Shown one piece after another: positions 3,119 through 54,240 of a stretch of DNA of 64,000 bases (within the stretch, counting starts at the first letter, position 1; each line of letters starts with the position of its first letter). Position numbers and translations under genes: made by a program. The notes under the pieces are model-generated. The model saw only the letters and a list, made by a program, of their open reading frames with translations. It ran no database searches and was not told the DNA's origin. Origin of the DNA: a virus; IMG/VR virus record IMGVR_UViG_3300037010_000760, positions 4,422 to 68,421 of that record. One strand, written 5' to 3'.

Positions 3119-3184
3119 TAGGTAAATTTGAGTATATACTAGCCTCAACCCAAAAAGTTGGGGCTTTTTCACTTAGGACACACC

Positions 3185-9100: not shown

Positions 9101-12100
9101 GTATCCCCTAAACTAATAGAAGCTTTGAAATCAGCCTTGGGATCGGAATTTACCCCATCCTCTTTATATGCACTTCATGAATATGCCCGCTATCTGGCCA
9201 GCAGTGAGGCTGATAAAGCGAACTTTAAGACTGGCCTGTATATTGAGGCTGATGGGGTTAATAACGGCCCCGCCAGTGCTCTGATGATGCTTGGTGGAAC
9301 CAGTGAACTCACTCATGAATTCTTTACCAATGCAGCCCGTATAGGTTATTTTATTGGTTCAGATGACAGAACACTTAACCAACAACGTCAAGAAGACCCT
9401 ACAGGATTATATGAGGCAGGTGCTCAAGTGTTGCCTACTTTCTTAGCTGATTTTGGTAATAAAATTGATGGCCATATTATACCAGAAGGCGAAAATACAC
9501 CTGCTATTGATCTCGGTGCTTACTTTGATCAAGTTAAGTATGTAGTAGCTAGTTTACTACCCAACTTCTCTATGGACGAAAATGGTAATTATACCATTGG
9601 ACGTTCTGTTATAAAGAATCCCCTCACTAAAACTGTATACGGTTCTGGCTCTCGTGGTATGGGTAATGGTCTTCTTAAAGACATGCTAAATGCATTCTAC
9701 GAGAAGCTATCTATAGTCAAGCTATATGAGGACTGGTATAGTAGTGAGGGTAAGAGTAATCCTAGAGAGTCAGCCTTTGTAGAGGTATTTGGTGACCAGT
9801 ACAGAGAACTAATTAAGTCAATGCATCGTCTTGCTAGTCATAGCGTAGAAGTTGAGAAAAAACAATTTGTTGTTAAGAATGGTATCTCCCCCCAAAATAA
9901 GTTTTTTGTTGAAAATGACTATCTTAATTTTGAGGTATCGGGTACTGCATTTAATAGCATGAGCAACAATATTAATACATTCTTTTCCAAGAAAGTAAGG
10001 AGTGCTATTACTGATGTTATGTCCGAAGCTGTTATGGACTCTACTCAATTGTTAGCTAAAGCAACTAGCTTCCATACTGAGTTCATGTCCCATGAGTTCA
10101 ATAAGCTATACGAAGCTGCTTTAGCTAAAAGAAAGAATTCTGATCACTTGTATAGACAAGCTGATGGTTTGTCCAATGATGAACTACGTGCTATTACAAA
10201 TAAAATGTCTAAGACATTTCCTTATATAAAAACAACTACACAAAGTTTTAATCCAGTTGGTGCCTCCAAGATAAGTAGTGATAACTTCATAGGTGTTACG
10301 TCTACCGGATATAAGGTTACTCCATCCATATTTGTACCAGAAAGTGCTGGTGTATCTGGCATTCCTTACATGATTATTGGTTTAGGAGATGGAAGAACTA
10401 TTCAGATATTTTCAGATGGTGGCCCAGAAGATACATTAAATATTTATGATGGTATCCATATGGGCTTAGGTAAAGTAGAAGAATATAGTAAGAGAGCTAA
10501 TTCTGCTGTTTGGGACTCATGGCAAGGTAATCCTTTTGGTGCTCTTTTTCCATCTCTATCCACATTCGTTACTAACTATGACTGGCCTACTTTTTTAGCT
10601 TCTGCTAAATCGGATAAACTAAAAATTGCTCCTATCCTAGCTGCACTACATATTAAGTCTGTTTCCGAGTTACCAAATTACATAGCAAATCTTATTAATA
10701 ATGTTTCAACCTCTGCTAAGAATATAGATGCTACTCACCAAGTTTTAGGCAAATATAAGGCTACTATTGATCAGTTAGCCTCTATAGGCTCACCATATGT
10801 TAAATCAGGAGCGGATATTATTATTGATGATGCCTCTATAGCTGATATAAACTCCAAAATATCTTCTATAGCTCAGGCTGATACTAATTATGCCGTAAAT
10901 GGTATACTATCCGATGTTGCAGCTAAATTTAATGTACCCACCCCAACAAAACCTACTGAGTACAGCCTCAAATCATTTATAGCAACAGGTAGTGTAGCCA
11001 ATAAGACTACCACTGTAGAATCTCTACTGTCTACTAAATTACTTGATAATGTTTCTGTAAAGTACGGGCCACTAAGCTCATTTAGCGACAAGCTAACAAA
11101 AGATGACTTTGGTGGTTATGACCCAAAAACAAATACTATTTATATAGCCTCAGATAAATCTGGTGGAGTTGAGACATTAACGCATGAAATGGTTCATGCT
11201 GCTACATTTAGGGCTATTGCCAATCACTATGCCAATCCTGGTAACTCAGTTATAGCTACTGAAGTGTCCAGATTAGAGACATTGATGGGTAGCTTTTTAA
11301 ACAGGGCTGCCTTATCCATAGACGATACCGTCAGTGGTATAGCGGATAAAATCAATAAGATTGGTGATAGCTCTATTAAATTGAATGAGTTTATGGCATA
11401 TGGTTTGTCAAACCCTGCCATGCGTGCTGATTTAACCTCTGCTACTGCCTTAAAATTGCCTGAGAATATTATTAATAAATATACTGGTAAGATTAAGCAA
11501 CTGATAAAAGATATTCTTACTAAATTAGGTGTGCAGGCTCAAAAAACAGAATATGATCAACTTGTATTTAATGCGGTTCATGTGATGGCTAGTGGTGATA
11601 ATGCTACTATGTCTAATGGACAAATTCTCAAAATGGCTATTGGTGGCCTCAATACCAATAACCGTCTAAATAAGGTTACTGAATTCTTTGCTAGCAGCCT
11701 TGATAAATATCTTGATAGTCAGATAGACCCTGCGTTTTCAAGACTACCTCCAACAGGTTTACTTACTAAAAATCCAGGTGAGTTTACTAGAGCAGATAGA
11801 CTTGGATTTCAAGTATCTACTCTAATTGCCAGCAAATTTAATACCAGTCCACAGGAAAAAGTGGCATTGGATATGATTGTAAGTACCTTGGCAACAGGTG
11901 CTAAATTAGATGGTAATATCATGTCTGGTATAGAGCAACTCTATACCCACTTTACCAAGAATCTAACTCCAGAAGACTTCTTGCTAGTTGCCCCAACTGA
12001 TGCTACCCAAGCAGATACCTATGAAGCTAACGAGATGTATAACCTCGTCATGGGCAACTATACTACAGCTAAAGACGTGTATGGCCGTGGCCAGACACTG

Positions 12101-14971
12101 CCTATATTCTTTTCTTTGGGGCTAGTGAATGATCGCTTCCGTGATGTGCTGTCCAAGAAGGGACTTCCTGAAGCCATCAAGGTGATCTCTAGTGATACTG
12201 ATGCGTTCCTAACTAGCTCTGCAAATTTCCTATTGGACAAAATGGATAAGGCTCTGATAGGAACCGCAAAATCCAAAAACACTCAGCAAGCCTTGGATAG
12301 TATCTTTTCTACTTTGGTTCAAACTGGTACAGATTCCCTGACGTTGGTTGGTGCTGGTTTAAATAAAACTGGAAGTATGGTTGATGGTATAAATGACAGA
12401 GTTGTCTCAGCTATAGAATATGTTTCAGCTAAGTTAAATGATAGTGCTGATAAAAAATTAGCAACTACATCTAATAAAGTTGTAAAAGGTGTTGCCAACG
12501 TAGCCAAGAATATTGCTTTATCAATAAATGAAGATACAGCAGCTCGTGTTGGTGAGTTTGCTGTCTCATTGTCTAATCAGTCAAATTTATTTAAACCACT
12601 TCAATCTTTAATAACAGATTTTGTTGGCAGGACTGATAGTAACAAATTGTTATATGACATGATTAAGTTTGTTAGATCAAATGCTCAGAAAGATCGTCAG
12701 CATTATCGTGAAGAACTGCCTGCCATATTAGCATCACAATTTACACGTAAACTATCTGATAAAGAGTGGACTCATCTTTTCACTGGCCTAGCTAAAACAG
12801 ATTTAGCACAATTAGTTAACTCAATTGGCATTAAAGATACGGTTTCACTATTGTCTGACCCAACAAAAATAGATACTCGTATTACTACGTTAGAGGCTAA
12901 CCTGAGAAATCAAGTGCCAAGTAGCTGGCCTAGTATTCAGAAAAAGTCTAAGCAGCTTGCTAATTATATGATGACTGGTGAGCATGGCCCTATGCTTATG
13001 CGTAATGCTGATATTATTCAGTTAACTTTAGGTGGCAACCGTAATGAGATTGACTCTCTGGTAACTCTGTACGCTCTACAAAAACTTGAGCAGCCTGTAA
13101 AGACTACCCTTACTTCTTTAGTTCAAACTCAGAAATCTGGCATTGATTCCCTAGTCGGCTACCTATCTGGTCAGCGCCAAGATGATATACATCCTGATGC
13201 TGCTATTCGTATGAACGTATATAAAGGATATATCCCATCATTGCAAAATGAATCGGTATCGTTAAAAGTGATGCCGAATACAGAGCATGCTGCTATGCTA
13301 GAAAAGGGTTATATTCGTACAGGCAACTATGCAGGCTCTATACTTGAGACCAGAGCCTCATCTAGTTACTACTTCTTAAATGCCCCTGCTAAAGCTGCGT
13401 TTAGTCAGGGTCTCATACAAAACGTACATAGTACATCTGGTGGCATTGATACTAGAACTCTATTCTCTACTGGATTAGTTGCTGGTCGTATTGTCGACCC
13501 TAGAGTAGTAAGTAAGCTAGCCCCGTATCTAAATGGTGATGTAGCTGGTAACGAGAATCTGTTACCCATATTTGATGGTACTGGTAACATCATTGCATTG
13601 GAGAGGGCTGTACGTCCAGATCAACTTGTACAACTAAAGCAAGATACCCATTTAGCAAAAATGATTGGTGTATGGCGTGGTCGCCAAGTTGAGGAGTATA
13701 AATCAAGAGCTGTTAACGAGGCACTTATTTCCAGATTTAAGCAAATGTATTCTGACGATATTAGTAAAAATCCAAATACCGCTAGAGAGTATGTTAATCT
13801 ATTTCAGTCCCAAGACCCAATACACAAAGATGCGCTAAAACTAATGCCTATTTATATGAAGAGGGCATTGGAATCTGAGTTTGGAAAAGATACATTTATG
13901 GTCAGAAAAGACATGATTGACAGCACCATCGGTTATCGTACACCATCTATAGGTGATGCTTGGACTGGTGTATCTGGCTGGAGTCCTAAGAGTCTCGAAT
14001 TAGCTAAAAATGTCACTATGTCCATATTTGGTAATAAATCATATGAGTACCTTGTGAATGCAGAGCAGATACTCAAAAATGCTATACAAGATGTTAAGCT
14101 GATTATTGTCGTTAAATCTGTAATTGTGCCTGTTGGTAATATGTTAGCCAACGTCATTCAATTAATGTCTAGAGGCGTGCCTATCAATGATATTGTTCGT
14201 GGAATGCCAAAAAAAGTTTCTGAAGTTACTTTCTACAATAAGCAACATCTTCGTAAAATTGAGCTAGAAGTCGCATTACGTGTTGCTGAGGGTAACAATG
14301 ATATTGTTGGTATTCGTAAAGCAAAGAATGAGTTGGAGACTATTGAAGATAGTTTCCGTAGACTAAGCATTTGGCCTTTAATACATGCAGGAGAATTTTC
14401 TGCTATTTCTGATGCTGGTATTTCTAGAGATGATATTATTTTGTCAGAAGGTAGACTGCATACCTATATAGAGAACCTTACAAACAAGTTGCCAGATGGA
14501 GTACGTACAGCGGCTAAATATGGTTTAGTCGCTAAAGATACTGCATTATTCCAAGGTTTGCAAAAAGCAGTTGAATATGGTGACTTCTTGGCTAAGGCTA
14601 TTCAGTATGATTATCTGACTACTAATAAGAAACTTAGCAAAGAAGACTCGTTAGCCCGTATATCTGAAGAATTTGTTAACTATGACCTGCTAATGGGCAG
14701 ATTCCGAGAATATATGGAGAACATTGGTCTATTATGGTTTACGGCTTTCAAAGTACGTTCTACCAAGATAGCTGCATCCATTATAAGGAATAATCCATTC
14801 CATGCTTTAATGTCATCTATCCCCCATTCATTTATGCCATCAGGTACTGGCACCCCTATTACTGATAACGCGGTAGCCAAGACTATGACTGGTAGTATTT
14901 GGTACTCACTTGGATTTGGTCAAGCATTACGTGCTCCTCAATTAAATCCTTGGTTCAATCTGGCCTATTAA
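3185..14971 (+). CDS. virion-encapsidated RNA polymerase (N4 gp50-like) with inserted NADAR domain and zincin-like HExxH region
   Basis: About 3930 aa; ATG 3185 follows AGGA. T7-superfamily motifs A 'YIEADGVNNG', B 'RSVIKNPLTKTVYGSG', C 'LNIYDG'. 'TLTHEMVHAAT' near 11180. No Cys seen on reading, as known for N4 vRNAP. Confidence 0.96.
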   Translation: MPSVSDLLTQLFSNPASSDMVKPSIGTSTEIGITVDQNSMLKQAEVDAAAARKKEELAGTSLSSMGAYGLGITSSTGYGARSAGQLDKDMLTRNPGELMSKYGAEVALRLLTQKASGEDSYNIDRGMPVSTGENISDFAINTGISAINAVGGAGAWAGSLINDKLGTTLSGSLDAFNNAASSLTSDRSKSSKQINSTTNWLDTRDNEAQYQKDKTNGDILAVLKREGRNAIGAVNIAKSDPTTLLEGTASGIGSMLGFGYFNKAVQGIGGTGKVATMIRDASLPIAGGLVGGGSIYQQNVSDIMAKSTEEMAQQSPQYNKYVAQGLSPKDAQIRVAAESGEYAASIAGPLDMMTTMMVPGVNEIPHHVGSVGEAFKHTLFEPVQEFIESSNEQFASNAGNQYKFNPNQDIAEGVGKAAGTGALYGLTSAGATHAPGVAILGAKATKDAAATLLGSLKDKVSSISADNENSSPVSNAALATKATTAATQTPIVAANMQAAAANSDPAMQARVANFTNIMQSVSTHDANDFAESSDSIKAALSGATTKIDELNALKSVFNNKDSTDSDKDFAGTKLIDELSSMNEFLNTQTDVIDAVQDEPTKKFVRGMKQFAADILSNKEFLATRNDIATRLAQKHETSHPELAIAADPTSQEGKQAIAETLAIASTLPTEVNGKAVDAILKHSEDGSIKLTQEQKDNLEVSKAAITALQDNLVDGSDLMRVSTEASSAGLAGDKGKSAIQHATDIVRTVSEGNIPLAKTLLKSFERFAQHYQNKAEAVNQATQEGNDQDYKAHYTQLAHGQWVENKALYTFQKSGKGVELATQVHKEARAIGSMYNAIASMYPNMGVEPIALTKPDSIFLPGGKFDHKATQHGIGGNGLAGITAYRNRLVTQQSKGAENGHGQKEEVLIAPGTPSLPTRPPVRADGTESIEKVFHTDRVEAAAQLHERKLGVEKDLRNALTKPQPNEVGSLYGALRGMLSPESFKNDLGGNPKFNFLRSIKGNSLRNLIENGSYLDSFLTSRMTLNKGENLEAAVEHIVDKLNSGNYLTQQLQDRLDQLGITLQQINEAISDEQLDQEIAALEKRIADEAATAKSKKSARPAKGSEAGQTGTQKTIFESDEQSNKIAPVTVAPTINATKLEVTQAEYDKAISLQSMTGETAHDALDSASKKTLKILDTLENNPDSVAITTDATPTATTASIDKINIWYGSSENASLSNLAARKFTLLGKEYFSVEHAYQTLKSGSFDERTYARYKNAGVKISGKQAKIEGDYNISLMKRLMLASFNQNKEAKDLLLATGNAEITHTQEQGKSKWATIFPRLLMEVRNELRATPNATAPDTALTSSKPSTGPTQVTPTTQVSPPAIVSPTVNPISDAELSKLNLFLAAKSRLTEIITNPATYDPKIVAAAKKELSGLTKDRLNKVDYLFDGFPSDKAELDFLSNAPPSLIADTPGKLERLWELRNKSGKLFANLGTSKLLSTAGNILIAGTKPVNEKRASQLTDRPLDTFVQIVNENTNIKSDDKKLRTGLAKYITLRANLLQLAVSRTVLNEANSDNNLIKLLQLDHLDSLGNSNKYRIDLFPQNRLFSLLAPVDEGDTPKVKLDPRLMETASLAFMQWMLGAVDRKAVVDEKTVAGILGIDENLVTEAQIAEYSERITNIEAIDAISAGILRHWGLKPKDNIQIGYSEGVTRVLAKEMLDAAVSKELIEAGFGLNHNQVRIDSNKTVDSYGIDKLPKNVKLANAIFPDLVDNTAFLKNDQVMYIGDVTVPTSKTILREPEQLLSPEQIRAQDNNQKTIHRIDEASYKLFMGIGVKGIFDILSLPEKTDLLNIGHAKSVIGKKQGISAVFNKMKEVYQRVSNLATDGDVHGVPIHYKFEYTSTNRLQMIGSHTPQASKWMRNVILPTNGTIDATYGKMGYTSFMLSVAQNLGVSIQNYSREANISKIATKLDGELADVVSLLKDRVINNEDRVSPKLIEALKSALGSEFTPSSLYALHEYARYLASSEADKANFKTGLYIEADGVNNGPASALMMLGGTSELTHEFFTNAARIGYFIGSDDRTLNQQRQEDPTGLYEAGAQVLPTFLADFGNKIDGHIIPEGENTPAIDLGAYFDQVKYVVASLLPNFSMDENGNYTIGRSVIKNPLTKTVYGSGSRGMGNGLLKDMLNAFYEKLSIVKLYEDWYSSEGKSNPRESAFVEVFGDQYRELIKSMHRLASHSVEVEKKQFVVKNGISPQNKFFVENDYLNFEVSGTAFNSMSNNINTFFSKKVRSAITDVMSEAVMDSTQLLAKATSFHTEFMSHEFNKLYEAALAKRKNSDHLYRQADGLSNDELRAITNKMSKTFPYIKTTTQSFNPVGASKISSDNFIGVTSTGYKVTPSIFVPESAGVSGIPYMIIGLGDGRTIQIFSDGGPEDTLNIYDGIHMGLGKVEEYSKRANSAVWDSWQGNPFGALFPSLSTFVTNYDWPTFLASAKSDKLKIAPILAALHIKSVSELPNYIANLINNVSTSAKNIDATHQVLGKYKATIDQLASIGSPYVKSGADIIIDDASIADINSKISSIAQADTNYAVNGILSDVAAKFNVPTPTKPTEYSLKSFIATGSVANKTTTVESLLSTKLLDNVSVKYGPLSSFSDKLTKDDFGGYDPKTNTIYIASDKSGGVETLTHEMVHAATFRAIANHYANPGNSVIATEVSRLETLMGSFLNRAALSIDDTVSGIADKINKIGDSSIKLNEFMAYGLSNPAMRADLTSATALKLPENIINKYTGKIKQLIKDILTKLGVQAQKTEYDQLVFNAVHVMASGDNATMSNGQILKMAIGGLNTNNRLNKVTEFFASSLDKYLDSQIDPAFSRLPPTGLLTKNPGEFTRADRLGFQVSTLIASKFNTSPQEKVALDMIVSTLATGAKLDGNIMSGIEQLYTHFTKNLTPEDFLLVAPTDATQADTYEANEMYNLVMGNYTTAKDVYGRGQTLPIFFSLGLVNDRFRDVLSKKGLPEAIKVISSDTDAFLTSSANFLLDKMDKALIGTAKSKNTQQALDSIFSTLVQTGTDSLTLVGAGLNKTGSMVDGINDRVVSAIEYVSAKLNDSADKKLATTSNKVVKGVANVAKNIALSINEDTAARVGEFAVSLSNQSNLFKPLQSLITDFVGRTDSNKLLYDMIKFVRSNAQKDRQHYREELPAILASQFTRKLSDKEWTHLFTGLAKTDLAQLVNSIGIKDTVSLLSDPTKIDTRITTLEANLRNQVPSSWPSIQKKSKQLANYMMTGEHGPMLMRNADIIQLTLGGNRNEIDSLVTLYALQKLEQPVKTTLTSLVQTQKSGIDSLVGYLSGQRQDDIHPDAAIRMNVYKGYIPSLQNESVSLKVMPNTEHAAMLEKGYIRTGNYAGSILETRASSSYYFLNAPAKAAFSQGLIQNVHSTSGGIDTRTLFSTGLVAGRIVDPRVVSKLAPYLNGDVAGNENLLPIFDGTGNIIALERAVRPDQLVQLKQDTHLAKMIGVWRGRQVEEYKSRAVNEALISRFKQMYSDDISKNPNTAREYVNLFQSQDPIHKDALKLMPIYMKRALESEFGKDTFMVRKDMIDSTIGYRTPSIGDAWTGVSGWSPKSLELAKNVTMSIFGNKSYEYLVNAEQILKNAIQDVKLIIVVKSVIVPVGNMLANVIQLMSRGVPINDIVRGMPKKVSEVTFYNKQHLRKIELEVALRVAEGNNDIVGIRKAKNELETIEDSFRRLSIWPLIHAGEFSAISDAGISRDDIILSEGRLHTYIENLTNKLPDGVRTAAKYGLVAKDTALFQGLQKAVEYGDFLAKAIQYDYLTTNKKLSKEDSLARISEEFVNYDLLMGRFREYMENIGLLWFTAFKVRSTKIAASIIRNNPFHALMSSIPHSFMPSGTGTPITDNAVAKTMTGSIWYSLGFGQALRAPQLNPWFNLAY

Positions 14972-44301: not shown

Positions 44302-44988
44302 ATGCTTACTAAAGATCAAATTGAAAAAGCAGTACCTGCCCATTTGAAAAGCAACATCACACAATCATTAGTTGATTTAGTGAATAACATTTCAACTGAC
44401 CCTGAGTTTGCTGAAAGCGTAAGAAATAACTTCATCTCTTATACCTCTGTTCTGAAGGATGGTAAGTTTAAAACAGAAGACTATGTACATGCCGTAGCAT
44501 ATGTTAGTTACAAGGTGATGGGCTACACAAACCAAGATGCGTATGCCAGAACATTTCCTCAAAGATACGCTGCCTTGATTGCTAAAGGCACTGTTAGTAA
44601 AGACATTGCTGCTTATGTATCAGCATATAACAAGGGTAAACTTGTCAATCTGATTCTTGAACAGACATTAGTCCCCACTTGGGTGTTGAATCAAGACCTG
44701 TACCAGAAGGCCATCAATGTGCAGGCCGACCTAATGGCTAATTCGATGAGTGACAAGGTGAAGTGCGAAGCAGCGAATTCCTTGCTCACCCACCTAACTA
44801 AGCCAAAAGAGGTAGGGCCACTGATTAATTTTGACATGCGAGAAAACTCTGGTATGAATGAAATGCGAGAGTTACTTGCTAAAATGGCACAGAAACAGCA
44901 GGAACTTATTACCGGTGGTGTACCTACCCATATTATCGCATCCCAGTCTATCATTGATGTGAAGGCTAAAGACAATGGCACTCATTAA
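44302..44988 (+). CDS. N4 gp69-like protein (putative terminase small subunit)
   Basis: 'NFISYTSVLKDGKFK..DYVHAVAYVSYK', 'EAANSLLTHL'; upstream of terL. Confidence 0.8.
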   Translation: MLTKDQIEKAVPAHLKSNITQSLVDLVNNISTDPEFAESVRNNFISYTSVLKDGKFKTEDYVHAVAYVSYKVMGYTNQDAYARTFPQRYAALIAKGTVSKDIAAYVSAYNKGKLVNLILEQTLVPTWVLNQDLYQKAINVQADLMANSMSDKVKCEAANSLLTHLTKPKEVGPLINFDMRENSGMNEMRELLAKMAQKQQELITGGVPTHIIASQSIIDVKAKDNGTH

Positions 44989-46567
44989 GCAAAAACTTGA
45001 TGAGTGGTTAGATCAAGTTAACTACTCTGGGTTAAACTCCAATAGCTATATACCTAGTGATTTTGCCCTAACATTTATGAACTTCATTAAGTTAGTAAAT
45101 GGTTCTGTTGGAGAGTCACATAAGACACCTCCAGTACATTTAAAGATGCTGGATAAGATGATAACCCCACAATCTTACATAGCTAATCTATGTTTTCGTG
45201 GTGCTGCTAAGACAACTTTATTCATGGAGTATTTCACCCTATACGTGAGTATGTTTAATCACCTACCTGGGTTTGGTAAAATAGATGGAATGATCTATGT
45301 TTCTGACTCTATGGAGAACGGGGTAAAGACAGCAAGAAAAAATATTGAGTTTCGCTATAACAATAGCGAGTTTTTACAACAGTGGGTTCCAAAAGCATCA
45401 TTCACAGACAACTACTTAGAGTTCCAGAACACAGAGGGCAATGTTCTTGGAGTGAAGATGTTCGGTGCCAAGACTGGTCTTCGTGGTACGAAGATTTTTG
45501 GTAAGCGACCTGTTATTGCTATTCTTGATGACTTGGTTAGCGATGATGATTCCAAGTCTAAGGCAGCAATGATTGCCATTAAAGATACTGTTTACAAGGG
45601 AGTAAACCACGCACTCGACCCCACCCGGAGAAAAGTAGTCTTCAATGGCACCCCATTCAACATGGATGACATTCTGATCGAAGCTGTGGAGTCTGGGGCT
45701 TGGGATGTAAACGTGTGGCCAGTATGCGAAAAATTTCCTTGCACTGAGGAAGAATTTGTCGGGGCATGGGAGGATAGATTCTCCTATCAGTACATCCAAG
45801 AACAGTACGATATGGCCGTCAAGACTGGAAAGTTAGCTTCATTTTTTCAAGAGCTGATGTTGCGAATCACATCGGAAGAAGAAAAATTAGTACAAGATGG
45901 GGATATTCAGTGGTACAGTCGTAAAAATTTACTGGAGCATAAATCCTCCTTTAACTTCTACATCACGACTGATTTTGCTACATCTGCAAAGCAGACAGCA
46001 GACTATTCAGTCATCTCTGTATGGGCATATAACTCAAATGGAGACTGGTTTTGGGTAGATGGTACATGCGAACGACAGACGATGGACAAGTCAATTGATG
46101 ATTTGTTTCGTTTGGTTCAGCAATATCGTCCACAGCAAGTTGGTGTAGAGATAACAGGCCAACAAGGTGCCTTCATATCTTGGATGAAGAATGAAATGAT
46201 GAACCGGAATATCTGGTTTAACTTTGCCTCATCAGATAAGACAGGTCATACCCCTGGCATACGTCCAATCACAGATAAACTGTCTCGATTTAACCTTGTT
46301 GTTCCTTGGTTCAAAGCTGGAAAAATGCATTGGCCCGAGGAGATGAAACATAGTGTTATAGTTGGCACGTTTATGCAGCAAATTCGTTTAGCAACGTCAA
46401 GTGGTTTAAAAGGCAAAGATGACTGCATAGATACAATTTCTATGCTTGGATTCTTATCACCATGGAGACCATCAGATTCAGTACCTGCCACCAAAACTGA
46501 AGTGGATTTATGGGAAGATGAATACCCAGAAGCCAGTCAAAATGCTTTGGCCACTTACATTGTTTGA
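44975..46567 (+). CDS. terL: terminase large subunit
   Basis: 'CFRGAAKTT', 'ILDDL', 'GTPF', nuclease 'TTDFATS', 'DDCIDTISML'. Confidence 0.95.
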   Translation: MALIKQKLDEWLDQVNYSGLNSNSYIPSDFALTFMNFIKLVNGSVGESHKTPPVHLKMLDKMITPQSYIANLCFRGAAKTTLFMEYFTLYVSMFNHLPGFGKIDGMIYVSDSMENGVKTARKNIEFRYNNSEFLQQWVPKASFTDNYLEFQNTEGNVLGVKMFGAKTGLRGTKIFGKRPVIAILDDLVSDDDSKSKAAMIAIKDTVYKGVNHALDPTRRKVVFNGTPFNMDDILIEAVESGAWDVNVWPVCEKFPCTEEEFVGAWEDRFSYQYIQEQYDMAVKTGKLASFFQELMLRITSEEEKLVQDGDIQWYSRKNLLEHKSSFNFYITTDFATSAKQTADYSVISVWAYNSNGDWFWVDGTCERQTMDKSIDDLFRLVQQYRPQQVGVEITGQQGAFISWMKNEMMNRNIWFNFASSDKTGHTPGIRPITDKLSRFNLVVPWFKAGKMHWPEEMKHSVIVGTFMQQIRLATSSGLKGKDDCIDTISMLGFLSPWRPSDSVPATKTEVDLWEDEYPEASQNALATYIV

Positions 46568-46572
46568 AAATC

Positions 46573-47277
46573 ATGCGCCTACGAGATTTGTTTGAAAATT
46601 TGGTTAATGGTGAGTTATCTAACTTAGCAATGGCTACTACTTTAGTTAGTGACACTATTACGCCAGACCATAAAAAAGTAGTCATCTACGCAAATGATGC
46701 TCTTATACGACTCTATTCAAAATTTGTTTTGAAAGAGAATGATATTATTATTATCACCCAGAGTGGTATAACAAATTATCACTTGGATAGTAGATTTTCT
46801 ATTCAAGGGCATGATGGTAAGTTGATAAGAGTACCGTATATACAAGATTTGCCACAAGAACCTTTTACTAATGATGTAGTGAAGATACTTGCTGTGTATG
46901 ATAATAGTGGTTGTGAGCTTGCCCTCAATGATGCTGAGTGCTATAACTCTGTTTACACACCACAAGCAAACGTTTTGCAGGTTCCAAGACCCTATGATGG
47001 GATGGTACTGAGTGTGCTGTATCAGGCAAAACACGAAACCCTATCTATAGAAAATATAGAACAGATAATTGAGTTGCCTGATGTATTGATTAGCGCCTTT
47101 ACAGCCTATATTGCTTATAAGGTACATAGCCATATTAATACGCAGGAATCCTCTGCTAAAGCTCAGGAACACCTGACCTTATATACATCACTAACTGATG
47201 ATGTTTTGCGTGATGACACTGTTGGTGTTAGTATATCTGGCACTAATGTTAGATTTCAAAAACGTGGATGGATTTAA
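46573..47277 (+). CDS. virion adaptor/neck protein (N4 gp67-like)
   Basis: 'GELSNL', 'LIRLYSKF', 'YQAKH', C-terminal 'FQKRGWI'; synteny. Confidence 0.8.
   Translation: MRLRDLFENLVNGELSNLAMATTLVSDTITPDHKKVVIYANDALIRLYSKFVLKENDIIIITQSGITNYHLDSRFSIQGHDGKLIRVPYIQDLPQEPFTNDVVKILAVYDNSGCELALNDAECYNSVYTPQANVLQVPRPYDGMVLSVLYQAKHETLSIENIEQIIELPDVLISAFTAYIAYKVHSHINTQESSAKAQEHLTLYTSLTDDVLRDDTVGVSISGTNVRFQKRGWI

Positions 47278-47758: not shown

Positions 47759-47759
<1 letters not shown>
47280..47759 (+). CDS. short tail-appendage anchor protein (gp66-like N-terminus)
   Basis: 'LVDKRIGNAFDTVQQVALNL' resembles the virion-attachment N-terminus of N4-like appendage proteins; only about 160 aa. Confidence 0.6.
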
Positions 47760-48895
<1,136 letters not shown>

Positions 48896-48896
48896 T

Positions 48897-51689
48897 ATGC
48901 CAAAATTCTATGTACCATTTGGTGTATTTCTGCTTAGTAATCCTATACGGAATTACTCTAGCAGGGTCATACCTAACTTTATCAGTAAAGTTATACCTAA
49001 TCCTGATATAGTGCTACCTACTCTATCTATTAGTGATGGTGTAATTAGTACAGTAGTCACGTCAATAACACTGTCCATAAGCAATGGTGTTATTACCACT
49101 AGCTCACCTATTGTCACAGATGTTGGGTACATAGCAACATTCATTGATGGGCTTACACCAATAACTAAGTATGCCTTTGTCGATACAGAAGTAAGTGCCA
49201 CAAATACTGTGTCATTCAAACTTGTGGCCACAAGTGCTTCGACATATTCTATATTGCCTAATTCGATTGGCCCGTTCCATATCACTTATGGCACTCCTCC
49301 AGATGGGCTTGTAGTGGCCCCCAGACAGCTTACCCTAGGAGCATCTTTACAGGTGAATGTGTCACTCTCTTCTTTGGTTCCAGTAGCTGCAAATAGTGTT
49401 TTGACCTTTACCCCAGATGTAGGTAATCCAGTCTCTATCACGTTAACTGGTAATGTGCTAACCGAGCTACCTATAGTACCATTACCTAGAATAACTGCAT
49501 TAGGTAATCAATTTATAAGGTCAGGAGTCCCATTTAGACTTAAAGGTGTTAATTGGTATGGTGCAGAAACTAGCTCCTACGTACCTCACGGCATGTGGGT
49601 TAAAAGTTATAAAGCCATCATAAAAGATATTGCTGATATGGGATTTAACTGCATCCGATTACCATTCGGTACAGATGGCTATTCAAATCCAAATTTAATA
49701 TCTCCAGATCAAGGAGCTATGGGTAACTCTGGAAGCCCAAATTCATATATTAATCCTGATTTGGTTGGATTAACTGTATACGAGGTTCTTGATAAGATTA
49801 TCAATGCCTGTACTAGAAATGGTATATATGTTCTGCTAGACAACCATAGAAATACGCTATCTGGGCAAGATGGTACTCCTATACCGACAGGTGGGACAGT
49901 ACAGCATTGGCATGATGTTTGGTCACTGATGGCAACTAGATACGCCAATAATACTACTGTAGTTGGTTCCGATCTATTTAATGAGCCTTATGCCTTACTA
50001 TGGGCAGATTGGAAAGAACTAGCTCAAAATTGTGGAAACTACATTCATACCATTGCGCCAGACTGGCTCATTTTTGTTGAGGGGACGAGTGGTACAGAGA
50101 GTGGATACCCATTCTGGTGGGGTGGTAACTTAGAATATGTCTCCACTAATCCTATAGTTTTAGCCGCACCTAATAAATTGGTATATTCTCCGCATGAATA
50201 TGGGCAATCTGTATATTTACAGAGTTGGTTAGCCTACTCAGGAAACACTCCAGCTAATTGGCCAAATAATCTTAACCAACTTAGAACAAATCACTGGGCA
50301 TTCATATTTGAGCAAAACATTGCTCCAGTATTTGTTGGAGAATTTGGTGGATTTTTTGGTTACGATATGGATGGGAATCTCACTAAACCAAATGGGCCTG
50401 AAGAGATAGCATGGTTAAATAATCTTATTGCACACATGAATGGTGATTTCAATAATGATGGTGTAAGTGAGTTGATCGGCGCTAATAAGGGTGTTTCTTT
50501 TGCTTATTGGTCATTAAATCATGATAGCTCAGATACTGGTGGTCTGTATACGGCTCAACCAAATAACGCTGGTTGGATTAACTGGCAGACAAATAAGTTA
50601 GCTTTGTTGTCTAATCTATTATCTGGTGCTATCGTACCAAAAGGTTGGGGTAATAGAGTTGTATATGGTTATTATCCTACATGGGATAATAATGACTATA
50701 CTTCAGCCACTGTTCAATCTGGACTCACCCACACTATAATGTCTTTTGTTCAACCAGACTTCACATGGTCAGGCTCAACAACATCATGGGAGGGTACGGG
50801 ATTAGATTTTGGAGTATCTAATACTCCAGCAATTATCAAATCAAGACTTACTACCATACAGGCTAGGGGCATAAAAGTGTTCATGTCTATTGGCGGCTCC
50901 TCATACTACAATTGGTCAGGTCTTGCAGCAGAATCTGGGCTTACTTCAGGAACTCCTATCAAAAATGCTTTATTGGCGTTCTATAACTACATGGGCTTTG
51001 ATGGTATAGATATTGATTATGAGATTAATATTGATGATGGTAACAGAACAACTATACTTGCCCAGTATGCTAAATCAATACAAGCATTACGTGAGGTTGT
51101 AGATGCGGCTACTATACCCGGAAAGCTATGCTTAACTACTGTATCAGTTGGTGCTGACTACACTGCTTATACTGTTCCGGCAGGTTCTACTTTACCCCAA
51201 GGAAACAGTTGGTTTGGTGGTAATGCTGGCTCTGAAAGGATAACATTTGCTCTATCTGCTATAGGTGCTTACTCAAGCAAGAAAATAAAAGATTTGGTAG
51301 ATATGATTACGATAATGTCATATGACATTGGGCCTGAAAAGTATGATCCTATAGTGGCATATGAGGATTTCAGGAGTATATGCCTTCCTACTACATCTGT
51401 TAGTATTGGTATACGTATTTCAGGTAGCAGTGCTCCACTATACAAGGACTATATGGTCTTATCCTCAGACTGTGTAAACTCAGCTACCATTGTTGATACA
51501 GATCAGTATAGTAGAATTGTTAATCAACCAAACTCTGTTGAGAGAGTTGCTAAGTATCTAATGGCTAATTCTGGAAACGCTAATGACGGTATTATGTTAT
51601 GGCAGGCCAGAGAAAACGCATCACGTCAGTTGTCTGGTAAGACTACTGCTACAGCAGACTCAACAATAGCTTATATAAACACCCTTTAA
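48897..51689 (+). CDS. GH5 endoglucanase (cellulase) fused to a GH18 chitinase-like domain
   Basis: GH5 at about 49480-50620: 'GVNWYGAET', 'GFNCIRLPF', 'LFNEP', 'WWGGNL', 'YSPHEYG', 'FVGEFGG', 'AYWSLN'. GH18 at about 50650-51686: 'YGYYPTW', 'KVFMSIGG', 'FDGIDIDYE', 'MSYD', 'GIMLW'. Confidence 0.92.
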   Translation: MPKFYVPFGVFLLSNPIRNYSSRVIPNFISKVIPNPDIVLPTLSISDGVISTVVTSITLSISNGVITTSSPIVTDVGYIATFIDGLTPITKYAFVDTEVSATNTVSFKLVATSASTYSILPNSIGPFHITYGTPPDGLVVAPRQLTLGASLQVNVSLSSLVPVAANSVLTFTPDVGNPVSITLTGNVLTELPIVPLPRITALGNQFIRSGVPFRLKGVNWYGAETSSYVPHGMWVKSYKAIIKDIADMGFNCIRLPFGTDGYSNPNLISPDQGAMGNSGSPNSYINPDLVGLTVYEVLDKIINACTRNGIYVLLDNHRNTLSGQDGTPIPTGGTVQHWHDVWSLMATRYANNTTVVGSDLFNEPYALLWADWKELAQNCGNYIHTIAPDWLIFVEGTSGTESGYPFWWGGNLEYVSTNPIVLAAPNKLVYSPHEYGQSVYLQSWLAYSGNTPANWPNNLNQLRTNHWAFIFEQNIAPVFVGEFGGFFGYDMDGNLTKPNGPEEIAWLNNLIAHMNGDFNNDGVSELIGANKGVSFAYWSLNHDSSDTGGLYTAQPNNAGWINWQTNKLALLSNLLSGAIVPKGWGNRVVYGYYPTWDNNDYTSATVQSGLTHTIMSFVQPDFTWSGSTTSWEGTGLDFGVSNTPAIIKSRLTTIQARGIKVFMSIGGSSYYNWSGLAAESGLTSGTPIKNALLAFYNYMGFDGIDIDYEINIDDGNRTTILAQYAKSIQALREVVDAATIPGKLCLTTVSVGADYTAYTVPAGSTLPQGNSWFGGNAGSERITFALSAIGAYSSKKIKDLVDMITIMSYDIGPEKYDPIVAYEDFRSICLPTTSVSIGIRISGSSAPLYKDYMVLSSDCVNSATIVDTDQYSRIVNQPNSVERVAKYLMANSGNANDGIMLWQARENASRQLSGKTTATADSTIAYINTL

Positions 51690-51699
51690 GGCATATACC

Positions 51700-54240
51700 A
51701 TGGCACGAAATGCAAGACTTACTGTTACCTTGAGTGCAGCAAGCACGTCTGTAGTTACTGTTAACTATGCCACTGTGGATGGCACAGCAGTATCTCCATC
51801 TGATTATACCCATGTTAGTGGTACTTTAACTTTTGCTCCGGGGCAGGTTACCAAGTATATTGATGTAGCTATTCGAGATGATCTTCTTGGTTCAGCATCT
51901 GAACAATTCTCGGTGGTGCTCTCTTCCCCAACTGGAGCAACTATCCTTGATAACACAGGCGATGTTGTTCTTGGTTCTGGTGTTGGGGAAATACCCGAGT
52001 ATTACAGAAGATTTAATTGGGTATACGATAAAGTTCACAATACATCTATTGGCTACTTTGGCCCACAAACGGGGCCAAATGCTTTCTCTGTACCTAGACA
52101 TATACCCGAAGTAGACAGTCGAATCATTAATGAGGCACCTGACTATGGTGGAGAGACTGTATCCGAAACTGCATCTTTCTGGGTTGGCCTAGAGGCATGG
52201 AAAGGTTTAGTATCTGGTGACTGGTCAGGCTATAACACATGTGCCAATAATATAGAAAAATTCTATATACCTAATAATGCTAATCAGCCTGTTGGTGCAT
52301 ATACAGCAAGCAGACCTGCTGATTATGTTCCAGAAGGTAACTTAGTTAGCGATTACCCTAGACTAGCTAACTTAGCTGCCCCTATTGGTGCAGACCCGTT
52401 GTATGACGAGCTTCTATCCACTTATAGTACGAAAAACATCTATTTAATGCATTGGATTATCGATGTTGAAGGTGCTTATGGGTTTAAGAATGCTGAATTA
52501 GGTGCTTCCCAACTCTCATTTATGAATACATACCAACGTGGTATGCAGGAATCAAGTTATGAGACTATTCCACAAGGAGCTTGGAATAATTGGCAGAATG
52601 GTGGTCGAGCTGGCTCTGGCGGCTATGACCCATTATTTAATCAAGGTCTTCCAGATTATCCTGCTGCACCGTATGCCTATTCAAAAAAATGGTCATATAC
52701 TAATGCACCAGATGCAGAGATGCGAGCTATTCAGTGGGCATTTCATGCTAAGAAATTTGCTACAGAACAAAACAAACTATCTTCTATTTCCTCCTCCCAA
52801 GAAAAGTATATAAAGATGGGAGACTATGCCCGATATAATTTGTTTGATAAGTATTTCCGCAAAATTGGTGATAATCAAGTTGCAGGTTCTGGTTACAACT
52901 CGTGTCATTATTTGATTAACTGGTACGCTTCTTGGGGTGGTGAAATACCTACAAGTGGTTTAGGAAGTTGGTCATATCGAATTGGCTGTGGAGAGTCTCA
53001 TCAAGGCTACCAGGCACTGATTTCTGCATATGCAATGGCTACTGGAGGTGGTGGTATGACTCCTATGTCTCCCAGTGCCGGGGACATATGGTTGGGTTCG
53101 GTATATCGACAAATTGAAATGATTCGTTGGCTTCAATCACCAGAAGGCCCAATAGCTAGTGGAGTCACAAATTCTTATGCTGGAGATTATAGAATTCCTG
53201 ATGGAAATAGAAATGTTTCCAAATTCTATGGAATGTCCTATGTCTACTCTCCAGTTTGGCACGACCCACCATCAAATAACTGGGTTGGCTTCCAATACTG
53301 GGGACAAGGTAGAACTGCTGATCTATTCTTGGAGGTGAGTGATAAAACTACTCCACTAGCTACAGCCATAAGACCAAATCTTGAGATAATTCTTGATAGA
53401 CTAGTTTCTTGGGCAATTAGAGAAACTAGCATACTCACTGCTAGTGATGTGAAAGTATCTTTTAAAGTGCCTGCTACTATATCGTGGATAGTTGATAACA
53501 CGAAAGCAGAGTGGGCTGCTGAAATAGCTGCTGGTCAAGGTATCCCAACAACAAACAATTTTGAAGGAAGCAAAGAATGGTTACCTACTCTTAACTGGGA
53601 TGGTAAAGGTGACTATGCTGCTTTCTGGAATGCAAGTACAGTTCCAAATCCACATTTACACTGCCAAATGGCCCCTGAAAATGAGGGCGGACATGGACAA
53701 GATGTAGGGGTGGCTGCAAGTATGGCCTATCTACTGATAGCCTATGCGAAAGCTAAAAAGAACATGGGTAAGTTCAATACTACTGTATCTATTGTTGTTG
53801 GTTCAACTACTTATGAACATACAGCAGAAAGAGCGTTTCTATTAGCTAAGGATTTGCTTGATATTATATGGAATCATTTTAGATCACCATCTATAGGAAC
53901 AGATATTGAATCTAGTTATGGTATTGGTTTATCTGAACCACGTAGTGATTACGCTAGAATGACTGACACTGTTTATGTGCCTACAACTCCTGTGGCATAC
54001 ACTGGGGCTATGCCAAATGGTGATGTTATAAATTCATCATCCACATTCATATCCATAAGATCATTTTTGAAAGATGATAAAAAATGGGCAGAGTGCCTTG
54101 CATATGCCAATGCAATGAAGGCTAACCCTAATCAGACTGCCGTACCTCCACCAAATATGCTGTATCATCGCTTTTGGGCGCAAGTCGAATTTGCTATGTC
54201 GTGTGCGGCTCTGCAATATAATTTTTCAGAACTACTTTAA
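51700..54240 (+). CDS. Calx-beta + GH48 processive cellulase
   Basis: GH48 motifs 'EAPDYGGETVSE', 'MHWIIDVE', 'NTYQRGMQES', 'YTNAPDAE', 'KMGDYARYNLFDKYF', 'WLQSPEGPIASGVTNS', 'HDPPSNNW', 'YHRFWAQ'. Confidence 0.93.
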   Translation: MARNARLTVTLSAASTSVVTVNYATVDGTAVSPSDYTHVSGTLTFAPGQVTKYIDVAIRDDLLGSASEQFSVVLSSPTGATILDNTGDVVLGSGVGEIPEYYRRFNWVYDKVHNTSIGYFGPQTGPNAFSVPRHIPEVDSRIINEAPDYGGETVSETASFWVGLEAWKGLVSGDWSGYNTCANNIEKFYIPNNANQPVGAYTASRPADYVPEGNLVSDYPRLANLAAPIGADPLYDELLSTYSTKNIYLMHWIIDVEGAYGFKNAELGASQLSFMNTYQRGMQESSYETIPQGAWNNWQNGGRAGSGGYDPLFNQGLPDYPAAPYAYSKKWSYTNAPDAEMRAIQWAFHAKKFATEQNKLSSISSSQEKYIKMGDYARYNLFDKYFRKIGDNQVAGSGYNSCHYLINWYASWGGEIPTSGLGSWSYRIGCGESHQGYQALISAYAMATGGGGMTPMSPSAGDIWLGSVYRQIEMIRWLQSPEGPIASGVTNSYAGDYRIPDGNRNVSKFYGMSYVYSPVWHDPPSNNWVGFQYWGQGRTADLFLEVSDKTTPLATAIRPNLEIILDRLVSWAIRETSILTASDVKVSFKVPATISWIVDNTKAEWAAEIAAGQGIPTTNNFEGSKEWLPTLNWDGKGDYAAFWNASTVPNPHLHCQMAPENEGGHGQDVGVAASMAYLLIAYAKAKKNMGKFNTTVSIVVGSTTYEHTAERAFLLAKDLLDIIWNHFRSPSIGTDIESSYGIGLSEPRSDYARMTDTVYVPTTPVAYTGAMPNGDVINSSSTFISIRSFLKDDKKWAECLAYANAMKANPNQTAVPPPNMLYHRFWAQVEFAMSCAALQYNFSELL

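What the first reader, a model, noticed from the sequence alone, without database searches (positions are those of the whole stretch)
49017..51975. Split Calx-beta domain: the strand missing from the GH48 protein occurs twice in the N-terminus of the GH5-GH18 protein
Seen: the GH48 protein's Calx-beta starts at the second strand (MARNARLTVTLSAASTSVVTVNYATVDGTA..DY..GTLTFAPG) and lacks the usual first strand 'PTLSISD'. The upstream GH5-GH18 protein carries 'LPTLSISDGVIST' and 'ITLSISNGVITT' in tandem (49017-49100) with no Calx-beta body after them. Inference: donor-strand complementation could dock up to two GH48 subunits on each GH5-GH18 chain, a cohesin/dockerin-independent way to assemble the complex. 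The alternative is a fossil of a gene insertion that split an ancestral Calx-beta.
Basis: partly seen in the sequence, partly recalled or inferred. Interest (0 to 1): 0.8.

Follow-up and report, generated by a model that had tools for sequence, protein, structure and literature searches.

The report
Split-domain plug linking phage tail cellulases
In this N4-like phage a cellulase starts with a small beta-sandwich domain that lacks its first strand, and the neighbouring enzyme carries two spare copies of that strand, so the two enzymes probably snap together on the tail; this plug-and-socket joint recurs in many phages but has not been shown by experiment.

Summary
The GH48 protein (51700-54240) begins inside a Calx-beta domain. 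Pfam matches residues 5-79 to profile positions 24-99 of 119, the model has six strands, and an in-frame stop lies 7 codons upstream. The GH5-GH18 protein carries two 11-residue peptides (49020-49052 and 49068-49100). They are 9/11 identical in protein but use different codons, and they resemble the missing strand A/A'.

Peptide 1 is the best match in the whole 68,421-nt phage record to a matrix built only from bacterial Calx-beta repeats. The pairing recurs in the Erwinia phages S6, phiEaP8 and Hena1 and in uncultured phages. Eighteen of 18 small N-truncated Calx-beta proteins end in such a strand.

This argues against a neutral fossil and favours docking by strand complementation in trans. 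Binding is not shown:
- The complex prediction gave only weak support (0.32 against a best control of 0.01).
- Two GH48 per chain is untested.
- Some relatives have an acceptor without a recognisable donor.

A solved phage precedent for sheet completion exists (Tuc2009 BppU-BppA). This scan noted the same split Calx-beta pairing before on other DNA (e1-5691996, e1-327595, e1-5360414).

Verdict: a new variant of a known kind, interest 0.7.

The parts
48897..51689 (+). GH5-GH18 tail enzyme gene (930 aa), the donor-bearing scaffold
   Evidence: ORF. Pfam GH5 E 7.2e-45 (res 216-543) and GH18 E 6.4e-15 (res 589-850). The N-terminal 215 residues are 77% and 65% identical in P0126 and P0127, so the early ATG is used, although the source's own gene call (P0128, 778 aa) starts at residue 153.
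48897..49013 (+). N-terminal peptide (res 1-39) with the 'SSRVI' motif; inferred virion-attachment anchor
   Evidence: The motif is shared with P0126, P0127 and P0129, phiEaP8 gp06, the L014 117-aa protein and the N-terminus of the window's 378-aa protein. Its function is inferred. pLDDT is below 50.
49014..49055 (+). Donor peptide 1 (L40-V53), resembling Calx-beta strand A/A'
   Evidence: 11.6 bits, rank 1 of 20,526 14-mers and top of the six-frame scan of the record. Invariant S44, S46 and V49 in alignment A5. hhalign maps it to profile columns 14-27.
49062..49103 (+). Donor peptide 2 (S56-S69); a clade-specific tandem copy
   Evidence: 9/11 residues identical to peptide 1, 23/33 nt identical, and 7 of the 9 shared residues use different codons. 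Kept in P0126 and P0127; absent from P0129, S6, phiEaP8 and Hena1. Only 1.4 bits on the bacterial matrix.
49128..49466 (+). Ig-like domain (res 78-190) between the donors and GH5
   Evidence: AlphaFold2 model of res 1-215: all-beta, block pLDDT 61-83, whereas res 12-77, which hold both donors, stay below 50.
51676..51678 (+). In-frame stop 7 codons upstream of the GH48 start
   Evidence: It rules out an upstream-encoded first strand.
51700..51975 (+). Acceptor: Calx-beta domain lacking strand A/A' (GH48 res 1-92)
   Evidence: Pfam profile positions 24-99 of 119. Six-strand model, pLDDT 82.3. Z 13 to solved Calx-beta domains. It is the only acceptor in the 68,421-nt record.
52000..54240 (+). 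GH48 catalytic domain
   Evidence: Pfam GH48 E 7.5e-176. 56% identical to Erwinia phage S6 gp094 over 100% of the length.

Best explanation
The GH48 enzyme is hung on the GH5-GH18 tail protein by rebuilding one Calx-beta domain from two chains.

- **Socket.** The GH48 N-terminal domain folds as a six-strand sandwich whose B and G strands are exposed.
- **Plug.** A flexible linker peptide of the GH5-GH18 protein ('PTLSISDGVIST' type) inserts as the missing A/A' strands.
- **Scaffold.** The GH5-GH18 protein is itself probably fixed to the N4-type appendage by its N-terminal 'SSRVI' peptide. It would thus carry an endoglucanase, a GH18 domain and one or, through the second peptide, two GH48 exoglucanases against the host's exopolysaccharide.

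Shown here: the split, the sequence match of the peptides to the missing strand, and their conservation and co-occurrence with acceptors. Inferred: the physical insertion, the stoichiometry, the location on the virion and the substrate.
For: 1. **Truncation at the A'-B loop.** It is exact and conserved. All 11 phage acceptors in A1 and all 13 in A3 start 1-8 residues before strand B. Pfam matches start at profile positions 22-26 in 6 of 6 acceptors scanned.
2. **The peptide matches the missing strand.**
   - Rank 1 of 20,526 14-mers in the window.
   - Of the 11 best of 173,916 14-mers from 680 ORFs in 25 sources, 10 are peptides in the gene next to, or at the tail of, an acceptor gene. The set holds some phages twice.
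   - hhalign places the peptide profile on template columns 14-27, P 2.5e-4.
3. **Co-occurrence.** The GH5 proteins of S6 (gp095), phiEaP8 (gp06), Hena1 (gp204), L007 and L011 (three tandem copies: 8.9, 15.6 and 20.3 bits) carry the peptide, and the next gene starts with the truncated domain. In L014 the peptide is on the adaptor tail, and the GH5 protein has divergent repeats seen by eye.
4. **Adaptor proteins.** Of 120 small homologues, 18 are single-domain and N-truncated. All 18 end in an A-strand-like tail (8.7-25.3 bits), and one has two tails. The tail follows strand G as the next repeat's strand A does in tandem arrays.
5. **Selection.** S44, S46 and V49 are 3 of the 10 invariant columns in residues 1-215. 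The two copies differ at 7 of 9 synonymous codons.
6. **The donors do not fold into their own protein.** Residues 12-77 have pLDDT below 50, while the next domain reaches 61-83.
7. **Complex prediction: weak support.**
   - Score 0.32 (runs 0.29, 0.32, 0.36); best of 3 controls 0.01.
   - That mark was reached by 58 of 80 solved complexes and 2 of 110 mismatched pairs. At 0.60 or under it was reached by only 7 of those 80 solved complexes and by both mismatches that passed.
   - The runs agree in at least 90% of contacts; the partner's pLDDT is 49; no contacts were given.
   - My own alignments were used, so the calibration counts hold only roughly.
Against: - Binding is not demonstrated. The complex score is weak, and a predictor may simply reassemble a familiar intact Calx-beta fold from memory.
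- Donor and acceptor numbers do not always balance. The window has 2 donors and 1 acceptor. L011 has 3 donors and 1 acceptor in a complete 360-kb record.
- L014's GH5 protein has about 5 tandem 'PLSLSVSLG'-type repeats, seen by eye, which could equally be a fibrous beta repeat.
- Peptide 2 is not significant against the bacterial matrix.
- Misses:
  - Pseudomonas phage Skulduggery gp20 starts with the truncated domain, but no peptide of 5 bits or more lies within 9 kb apart from one unlikely hit in a CsrA-like gene.
  - PEp14, Parlo and LASTA each have 2 acceptors but only one clear C-terminal donor: 15.2 bits, 7.6 bits and, for PEp14 gp20, below the matrix's top hits.
- A and A' are edge strands (recalled topology of CBD1), so the six-strand domain might be stable and functional alone.
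Confidence: 0.6

Rival explanations
1. The peptides are conserved for another reason, and the GH48 N-domain docks elsewhere. The peptides could be a beta-strand linker or shaft repeat of the GH5 fibre, or a contact with another virion protein. The N-domain could bind the appendage or the 378-aa Calx-like protein through a different surface.
For: - Tandem copies outnumber acceptors: 2:1 here and 3:1 in L011.
- L014 has about 5 repeats that look like a fibrous motif.
- Skulduggery has an acceptor without a recognisable donor.
- The complex support is only weak.
Against: - The peptides match the very columns the acceptor lacks.
- The same peptide sits at the extreme C-terminus of 18 of 18 small truncated Calx-beta proteins and of the Parlo gp74 and LASTA gp08 fibre proteins beside acceptor genes. 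These are contexts with no shaft.
Confidence: 0.22
2. The six-strand Calx-beta domain is self-sufficient, acting for example as a sugar- or calcium-binding or spacer module, and needs no partner strand. The resemblance of the peptides reflects only common descent from a split tandem array.
For: - The model of residues 1-100 is confident without a partner (pLDDT 82.3).
- A and A' are edge strands (recalled).
- The published commentary on S6 proposes only that the N-terminal domains may attach the enzymes to the particle (PMC9544554, passages).
Against: AlphaFold confidence in a truncated domain says little about stability. The truncation point is identical in unrelated enzymes (GH48, EPS depolymerase, 960-aa tail proteins), which is expected for a shared docking module and not for a binding module.
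Confidence: 0.1
3. It is a neutral fossil of a gene insertion that split an ancestral Calx-beta, or a chance resemblance. On this reading the peptides have no present function.
For: For the window alone, the chance expectation of a hit as good as peptide 1 is 0.095 per proteome, which is not negligible.
Against: - The peptide is conserved in lineages whose GH5 domains are only about 42-49% identical.
- Both copies are kept despite synonymous divergence.
- Similar peptides recur in non-homologous contexts.
Confidence: 0.05

Closest known systems
Erwinia phage vB_EamP-S6 gp095 (GH5) and gp094 (Calx-beta + GH48), Schitoviridae
   Same: - The gene order is the same: terminase, adaptor, appendage, GH5 protein, GH48 protein.
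- GH48 is 56% identical over 100% of its length, and GH5 is 42% identical.
- gp094 starts at the same truncated point, and gp095 carries one 'LPALSVSDGVI' peptide.
- S6 is reported to need bacterial cellulose, and gp095 degrades carboxymethyl-cellulose (PMC9544554, passages).
   Different: - The window protein has two peptides, placed right after the N-terminal anchor. S6 has one, placed after two choice-of-anchor-D Ig domains.
- The window protein has an extra GH18 domain.
- The paper notes the Calx-beta domain and suggests that the N-terminal domains attach to the particle. The passages I read do not mention a missing strand or a partner peptide.
Donor-strand complementation and exchange in chaperone-usher pili (Fim, Pap); from established knowledge, recalled
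   Same: An Ig-like fold lacking one strand is completed by a strand from another polypeptide. The small phage proteins that hold both a socket and a plug resemble pilins in logic.
   Different: - The missing strand here is the N-terminal A/A', not the C-terminal G.
- The donor is an internal linker or a C-terminal tail, not an N-terminal extension.
- No chaperone or usher is in view.
- The fold is Calx-beta, and no polymer has been shown.
Lactococcus phage Tuc2009 BppU-BppA joint (crystal structure, PMC4742702, passages read)
   Same: This is a solved phage case. A 25-residue C-terminal beta-hairpin of BppU completes a beta-sheet of the BppA C-terminal sandwich, and the composite resembles a titin domain. 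It attaches an accessory carbohydrate-binding protein to the baseplate.
   Different: The domain family differs. The hairpin is donated to a C-terminal domain. It is a single known instance, with no tandem donors, no adaptor chain and no enzymes.
Bacterial cellulosome (scaffoldin cohesins with enzyme dockerins); recalled
   Same: Several glycoside hydrolases, including GH5 and GH48 types, are gathered on one scaffold that bears tandem docking sites.
   Different: Pfam finds no cohesin or dockerin at E up to 0.1. The docking element would be a 12-14-residue strand, and the scaffold is itself an enzyme on a virion.
Branched receptor-binding proteins of N4-like phage G7C (gp66 with gp63.1); recalled, not checked here
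   Same: In an N4-like phage, a second tail enzyme attaches through its N-terminal domain to the first, virion-bound tail protein.
   Different: The domains are different, and no split domain has been described to my recollection.

Membership tests
Calx-beta domain (Pfam PF03160) | Sequence match above the curated cut-off | tested here: met
   59.8 bits against a cut-off of 27, E 3.3e-16.
Calx-beta domain (Pfam PF03160) | Beta-sandwich fold like solved Calx-beta domains | tested here: met
   3gin_B Z 13.1 (rmsd 2.9, 96 aligned); 3fso_B Z 13.0 (rmsd 1.9, 93 aligned). Foldseek E 2.4e-6 to 2dpk.
Calx-beta domain (Pfam PF03160) | Complete domain including the first strand (A/A') | tested here: not met
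   The match starts at profile position 24 of 119. The model has six strands. An in-frame stop lies 7 codons upstream.
Calx-beta domain (Pfam PF03160) | Calcium-binding acidic residues | not tested
   Not examined here. Earlier scan notes on relatives (e1-275177, e1-327595) say they are lost; this is unchecked.
Glycoside hydrolase family 48 | Family profile match over the catalytic domain | tested here: met
   E 7.5e-176, residues 101-599 and a second stretch. Catalytic residues were not checked.
Glycoside hydrolase families 5 and 18 (upstream protein) | Family profile matches above the cut-offs | tested here: met
   GH5 154 bits against 23.5; GH18 56.1 bits against 29.6.
Donor-strand complementation systems (pilus type) | A subunit whose Ig-like fold lacks one strand | tested here: met
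   The missing strand is the N-terminal one, unlike pilins.
Donor-strand complementation systems (pilus type) | A matching spare strand on another polypeptide | tested here: met
   Matrix rank 1 of 20,526. hhalign maps it to columns 14-27, P 2.5e-4. The match is at sequence level only.
Donor-strand complementation systems (pilus type) | The strand physically inserts into the partner's sheet | tested here: inconclusive
   Weak support: score 0.32 against a best control of 0.01. The mark was reached by 58 of 80 solved complexes and 2 of 110 mismatched pairs; at 0.60 or under, by only 7 of those 80 and by both mismatches that passed. No contacts were reported.
Donor-strand complementation systems (pilus type) | Dedicated chaperone and usher | not tested
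   I did not search the record for PapD-like or usher proteins. None is expected in a phage.
Cellulosome (cohesin-dockerin) | Dockerin on the enzymes or cohesin on the scaffold | tested here: not met
   A Pfam scan of both enzymes at E up to 0.1 lists neither.
S6-type phage cellulase pair (GH5 protein followed by Calx-beta-GH48 protein) | Adjacent genes in the tail module, homologous to S6 gp095 and gp094 | tested here: met
S6-type phage cellulase pair (GH5 protein followed by Calx-beta-GH48 protein) | Infection depends on host cellulose | not testable with these tools
   The host of this record is unknown. The S6 data come from the literature (PMC9544554, passages).

The most novel reading that the evidence does not exclude
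A portable plug-and-socket code operates across unrelated tailed phages: a 12-14-residue A-strand peptide is the plug and an A-strand-less Calx-beta domain is the socket.

- It mounts interchangeable glycanases (GH48, EPS depolymerases, 960-aa tail enzymes) on tail scaffolds.
- Tandem plugs give multivalent, cellulosome-like arrays.
- 110-129-aa proteins that hold both a socket and a plug act as chain extenders, working like pilins but without a chaperone.

In this phage, each GH5-GH18 chain would carry two GH48 exoglucanases.
Probability: 0.45. Interest if true: 0.85.

Novelty: new variant of a known kind. Interest (0 to 1): 0.7.

Why it matters
- **Attachment of S6-type cellulases.** How these enzymes and many other secondary tail enzymes attach to the virion is described as open in the literature I could read (PMC9544554, passages).
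- **Reading phage genomes.** A short, sequence-recognisable plug and socket would let one predict from a genome alone which tail enzymes sit on which scaffold and in what number.
- **Exchange of enzyme modules.** It would explain how enzyme modules move between podoviruses, myoviruses and jumbo phages.
- **A protein-ligation pair.** It would offer a small natural, non-covalent pair for mounting chosen depolymerases on phage tails or other scaffolds.
- **Ease of testing.** The claim can be tested directly with a peptide and a 95-residue domain.

Tried and rejected
- **The search for related loci with the single GH48 protein** found no viral contig. The 11-row alignment A1 was too diverse for that tool. 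The 4-row alignment A2 worked.
- **The search for homologous proteins on GH48 residues 1-100** was swamped by bacterial multi-repeat Calx-beta proteins: 2,762 hits, with no phage proteins among the 120 listed. I used those proteins only to build the canonical repeat profile.
- **HMMER local search for the short strand** gave no positive scores, because the strand is too short. I replaced it with a position matrix and hhalign.
- **A frameshift or upstream start supplying strand A to GH48** is rejected: there is an in-frame stop, and no A-like 14-mer of 5 bits or more lies near 51600-51700 in any frame.
- **A strand supplied from within GH48** is rejected at sequence level: its best 14-mer scores 2.0 bits.
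- **The 378-aa upstream protein as a second acceptor** is rejected. Its three Calx-like units keep their own first strands (by eye), and it does not hit the acceptor HMM at E below 1e-3.
- **Peptide 2 as the first strand of the downstream Ig-like domain** is rejected. In alignment A5 it is an insertion absent from P0129, S6, phiEaP8 and Hena1.
- **Solved phage structures with this domain:** none among 18 PDB sequences at E up to 0.01, nor among the 32 Foldseek hits at E up to 0.001.
- **Literature searches:**
  - 'Calx-beta, phage, tail': 5 papers.
  - 'donor strand, bacteriophage, tailspike': 1 unrelated paper.
  - 'strand complementation, phage, tail fiber, cryo-EM': 0 papers.
  - 'Calx, tailspike, anchor': 0 papers.
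  - 'Calx, depolymerase, phage': 2 papers.
  - None of the papers I opened from these searches (PMC10194208 and PMC9544554, passages only) describes the split; the others I saw only as listings.
  - The phi92 structure paper (PMC13450770, term search only) holds no mention of Calx or gp142.
  - Supplements were not seen.
Full report
**What the region is**

The window is 64,000 of the 68,421 bases of an IMG/VR virus record estimated 93% complete. Around the finding lies the tail and appendage block of an N4-like podovirus:
- large terminase (44975-46567);
- an SU10-type adaptor (46564-47277; PHROG 2125, E 5e-71);
- a 163-aa protein and a 378-aa protein;
- a 930-aa GH5-GH18 protein (48897-51689);
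- an 846-aa Calx-beta-GH48 protein (51700-54240).

The closest cultured relatives are Erwinia phages. GH48 is 56% identical over its full length to S6 gp094, and GH5 is 42-49% identical to phage cellulases. The gene order matches S6 and phiEaP8.

**The acceptor**

- Pfam aligns GH48 residues 5-79 to Calx-beta profile positions 24-99 of 119.
- An HMM that I built from 300 repeats of bacterial multi-Calx-beta proteins aligns residues 3-89 to positions 27-113 of 118.
- The reading frame is closed by TAA 7 codons before the ATG, and an AAGG lies just upstream of the start. The first strand is therefore truly absent.
- AlphaFold2 on residues 1-100 with 13 aligned sequences gives pLDDT 82.3 and six strands.
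- The model matches NCX1 CBD1 (3gin_B: Z 13.1, rmsd 2.9, 96 of 116 residues) and the integrin beta4 Calx-beta domain (3fso_B: Z 13.0, rmsd 1.9, 93 of 112, chain range 1004-1105). The first part of each target stays unmatched.
- It is the only such domain in the whole record.

**The donors**

- The two peptides are residues L40-T52 and I57-T68 of the GH5-GH18 protein.
- I built a 14-column matrix from strand A/A' of the bacterial repeats only (consensus 'APTLSINDVTVTEG').
- On this matrix peptide 1 scores 11.6 bits. That is rank 1 of 20,526 14-mers in the window's 69 ORFs of at least 100 aa, and it is the top hit of a six-frame scan of the record. Shuffling expects 0.095 such hits per proteome.
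- Peptide 2 scores 1.4 bits (rank 8; 4.2 expected), so it is not significant alone.
- Peptide 2 is nevertheless 9/11 identical to peptide 1, while 7 of the 9 shared residues use different codons (23/33 nt identical). It is kept in the two closest homologues, P0126 (77% identity) and P0127 (65%).
- A profile of 15 donor peptides aligns by hhalign to template columns 14-27 of the canonical repeat, exactly the A/A' strands (P 2.5e-4, probability 42.6%).
- No Calx-beta body follows the peptides.

**Comparative evidence**

The pairing recurs widely.
- The GH5 proteins of S6 (gp095), phiEaP8 (gp06), Hena1 and pEp_SNUABM_01 (baseplate-fused gp204), and of the uncultured contig L007, each carry one such peptide about 120-150 residues before the GH5 domain. 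The next gene, GH48, starts at the same truncated point.
- In alignment A5 the peptide holds 3 of the 10 invariant columns of the first 215 residues.
- A 360-kb phage (L011) has three tandem peptides (8.9, 15.6 and 20.3 bits) in its GH5 protein, followed by a 963-aa tail protein with the truncated domain.
- Of the 11 best-scoring 14-mers among 173,916 from 680 ORFs in 25 sources, 10 are such peptides beside acceptors; the set holds some phages twice.
- The truncated domain also heads other enzymes: the PEp14 EPS depolymerase, a Parlo sialidase-like protein, and the 960-aa tail proteins of PEp14, Parlo and LASTA.
- Hena1 gp202, L014 8001-8345 and L009 8001-8339 are proteins of 112-117 aa consisting of the truncated domain plus a C-terminal A-strand.
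- A search for small relatives listed 120 proteins. Eighteen are single-domain and N-truncated, and all 18 carry such a tail (8.7-25.3 bits on 11 columns); one carries two.
- The tail follows strand G after a short linker, as strand A of the next repeat does in tandem arrays. It therefore cannot reach its own domain's A position (an inference from Ig-like topology) and should serve another chain.

**Structure predictions for the pair**

- The GH5-GH18 N-terminus (residues 1-215, 9 rows) has residues 12-77 below pLDDT 50. The following Ig-like domain reaches 61-83. The peptides are therefore not confidently part of their own protein's fold.
- The complex job used GH48 residues 1-100 and GH5-GH18 residues 30-81 and gave WEAK support:
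  - Score 0.32 (runs 0.29, 0.32, 0.36); best of 3 controls 0.01.
  - The mark was reached by 58 of 80 solved complexes and 2 of 110 mismatched pairs. At 0.60 or under it was reached by only 7 of those 80 and by both mismatches that passed.
  - The runs agree in at least 90% of contacts; the partner's pLDDT is 49; no contacts were given.
  - My own alignments were used, so these counts hold only roughly.
  - The pass may merely reflect the model's memory of intact Calx-beta domains.

**Results against the reading**

- Donor and acceptor numbers balance in S6 and phiEaP8 (1:1) and in Hena1 (2:2). They do not balance here (2:1) or in L011 (3:1, complete genome).
- L014's GH5 protein has about five divergent tandem repeats, seen by eye, which might be a fibrous motif.
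- Skulduggery gp20 has the truncated domain, but I found no donor within 9 kb.
- PEp14, Parlo and LASTA have two acceptors each and one clear donor.
- The six-strand domain could be stable alone.

**Mechanism proposed**

- The GH5-GH18 chain is anchored by its N-terminal peptide. That peptide shares an 'SSRVI' motif with the 378-aa protein and with homologues.
- Its flexible linker offers one or two A/A' strands.
- The GH48 N-domain captures a strand and so completes a seven-strand Calx-beta sandwich.
- The virion would then carry endo- and exo-acting glucanases side by side.
- Shown here: the sequence anatomy, the conservation and the co-occurrence. Inferred: the insertion, the stoichiometry, the location on the virion and the substrate.

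**Comparison with what is known**

- The S6 commentary notes the Calx-beta domain of gp094 and the choice-of-anchor-D domains of gp095. It states that the N-terminal domains may attach the enzymes to the particle and that their location remains to be shown (PMC9544554, passages).
- The Erwinia phage Key paper only lists Calx-beta among the domains of putative depolymerases (PMC10194208, passage).
- Tuc2009 provides a solved phage precedent. A BppU hairpin completes a sheet of BppA, forming a titin-like composite domain (PMC4742702, passages).
- Pilus donor-strand complementation is the classical analogue (recalled).
- None of my five searches found a description of a split Calx-beta joint in phages. 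Supplements were closed.

**Earlier notes of this scan**

Other agents reported the same split Calx-beta pairing on other DNA: e1-5691996, which from its description is probably the L011 phage; e1-327595 and e1-275177 in rV5- and phi92-type phages; and e1-5360414. These are unchecked AI notes and are not independent evidence. I had found the L011 triple donor myself before reading them.

**Verdict**

A neutral fossil is unlikely and trans-complementation is the best reading (confidence 0.6), but binding and the two-enzyme load are unproven.
- It is a new variant of a known principle.
- Interest is 0.7.

Noticed in passing
window 48897-48980 and 47759-47830; also L014 4914-5267: An N-terminal 'SSRVI' peptide is shared by the GH5-GH18 protein (res 21-25), the 378-aa Calx-like protein (res 16-20), P0126, P0127, P0129 and phiEaP8 gp06. 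A 117-aa L014 protein consists of this anchor plus two donor-like peptides. It may be a second docking peptide, fixing these proteins to the appendage base.
   Followed up: partly
window 48897-49352: The source's own gene call for the GH5-GH18 protein (P0128, 778 aa) starts at residue 153 and so omits the anchor and both donor peptides. Homologues are 65-77% identical over residues 1-215, which shows that the N-terminus is coding.
   Followed up: yes
window 47759-48895: The 378-aa protein has three Calx-beta-like units that keep their own first strands. They are joined by Pro-rich linkers, including a PAPAPAPAPAP run. Pfam Calx-beta is just below its cut-off (24.5 against 27 bits).
   Followed up: partly
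L014 5698-8001 (IMG/VR contig, N4-like): A GH5 protein with about five tandem ~20-residue 'GPLSLSVSLGSET'-type repeats before the catalytic domain. The next genes are a 114-aa protein holding both socket and plug, and then GH48. It could be a multivalent scaffold or a fibrous repeat.
   Followed up: partly
P0130-P0172 (18 proteins of 110-129 aa), e.g. Hena1 gp202 = L013 10460-10813: A family of small proteins made of an A-strand-less Calx-beta plus a C-terminal A-strand tail; P0137 has two tails. They could chain head to tail like pilins.
   Followed up: partly
L026 12134-15646 (Pseudomonas phage Skulduggery gp20): A tail protein that starts with the truncated Calx-beta, but no recognisable donor peptide lies within 9 kb. 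It is an exception to the pairing, or its donor is divergent.
   Followed up: partly
L003 6209-6568 (PEp14 gp17) and L005 6385-6609 (LASTA gp11): Small hypothetical proteins between two acceptor genes hold internal A-strand-like 11- to 14-mers (11.1/8.1 and 11.6 bits). They may be the 'missing' second donors of these phages.
   Followed up: no
window 3158-14971: A giant 3,937-aa ORF, presumably the N4-type virion RNA polymerase, holds the second-best A-strand-like 14-mer in the window (8.4 bits at residue 3752). This is probably chance.
   Followed up: no
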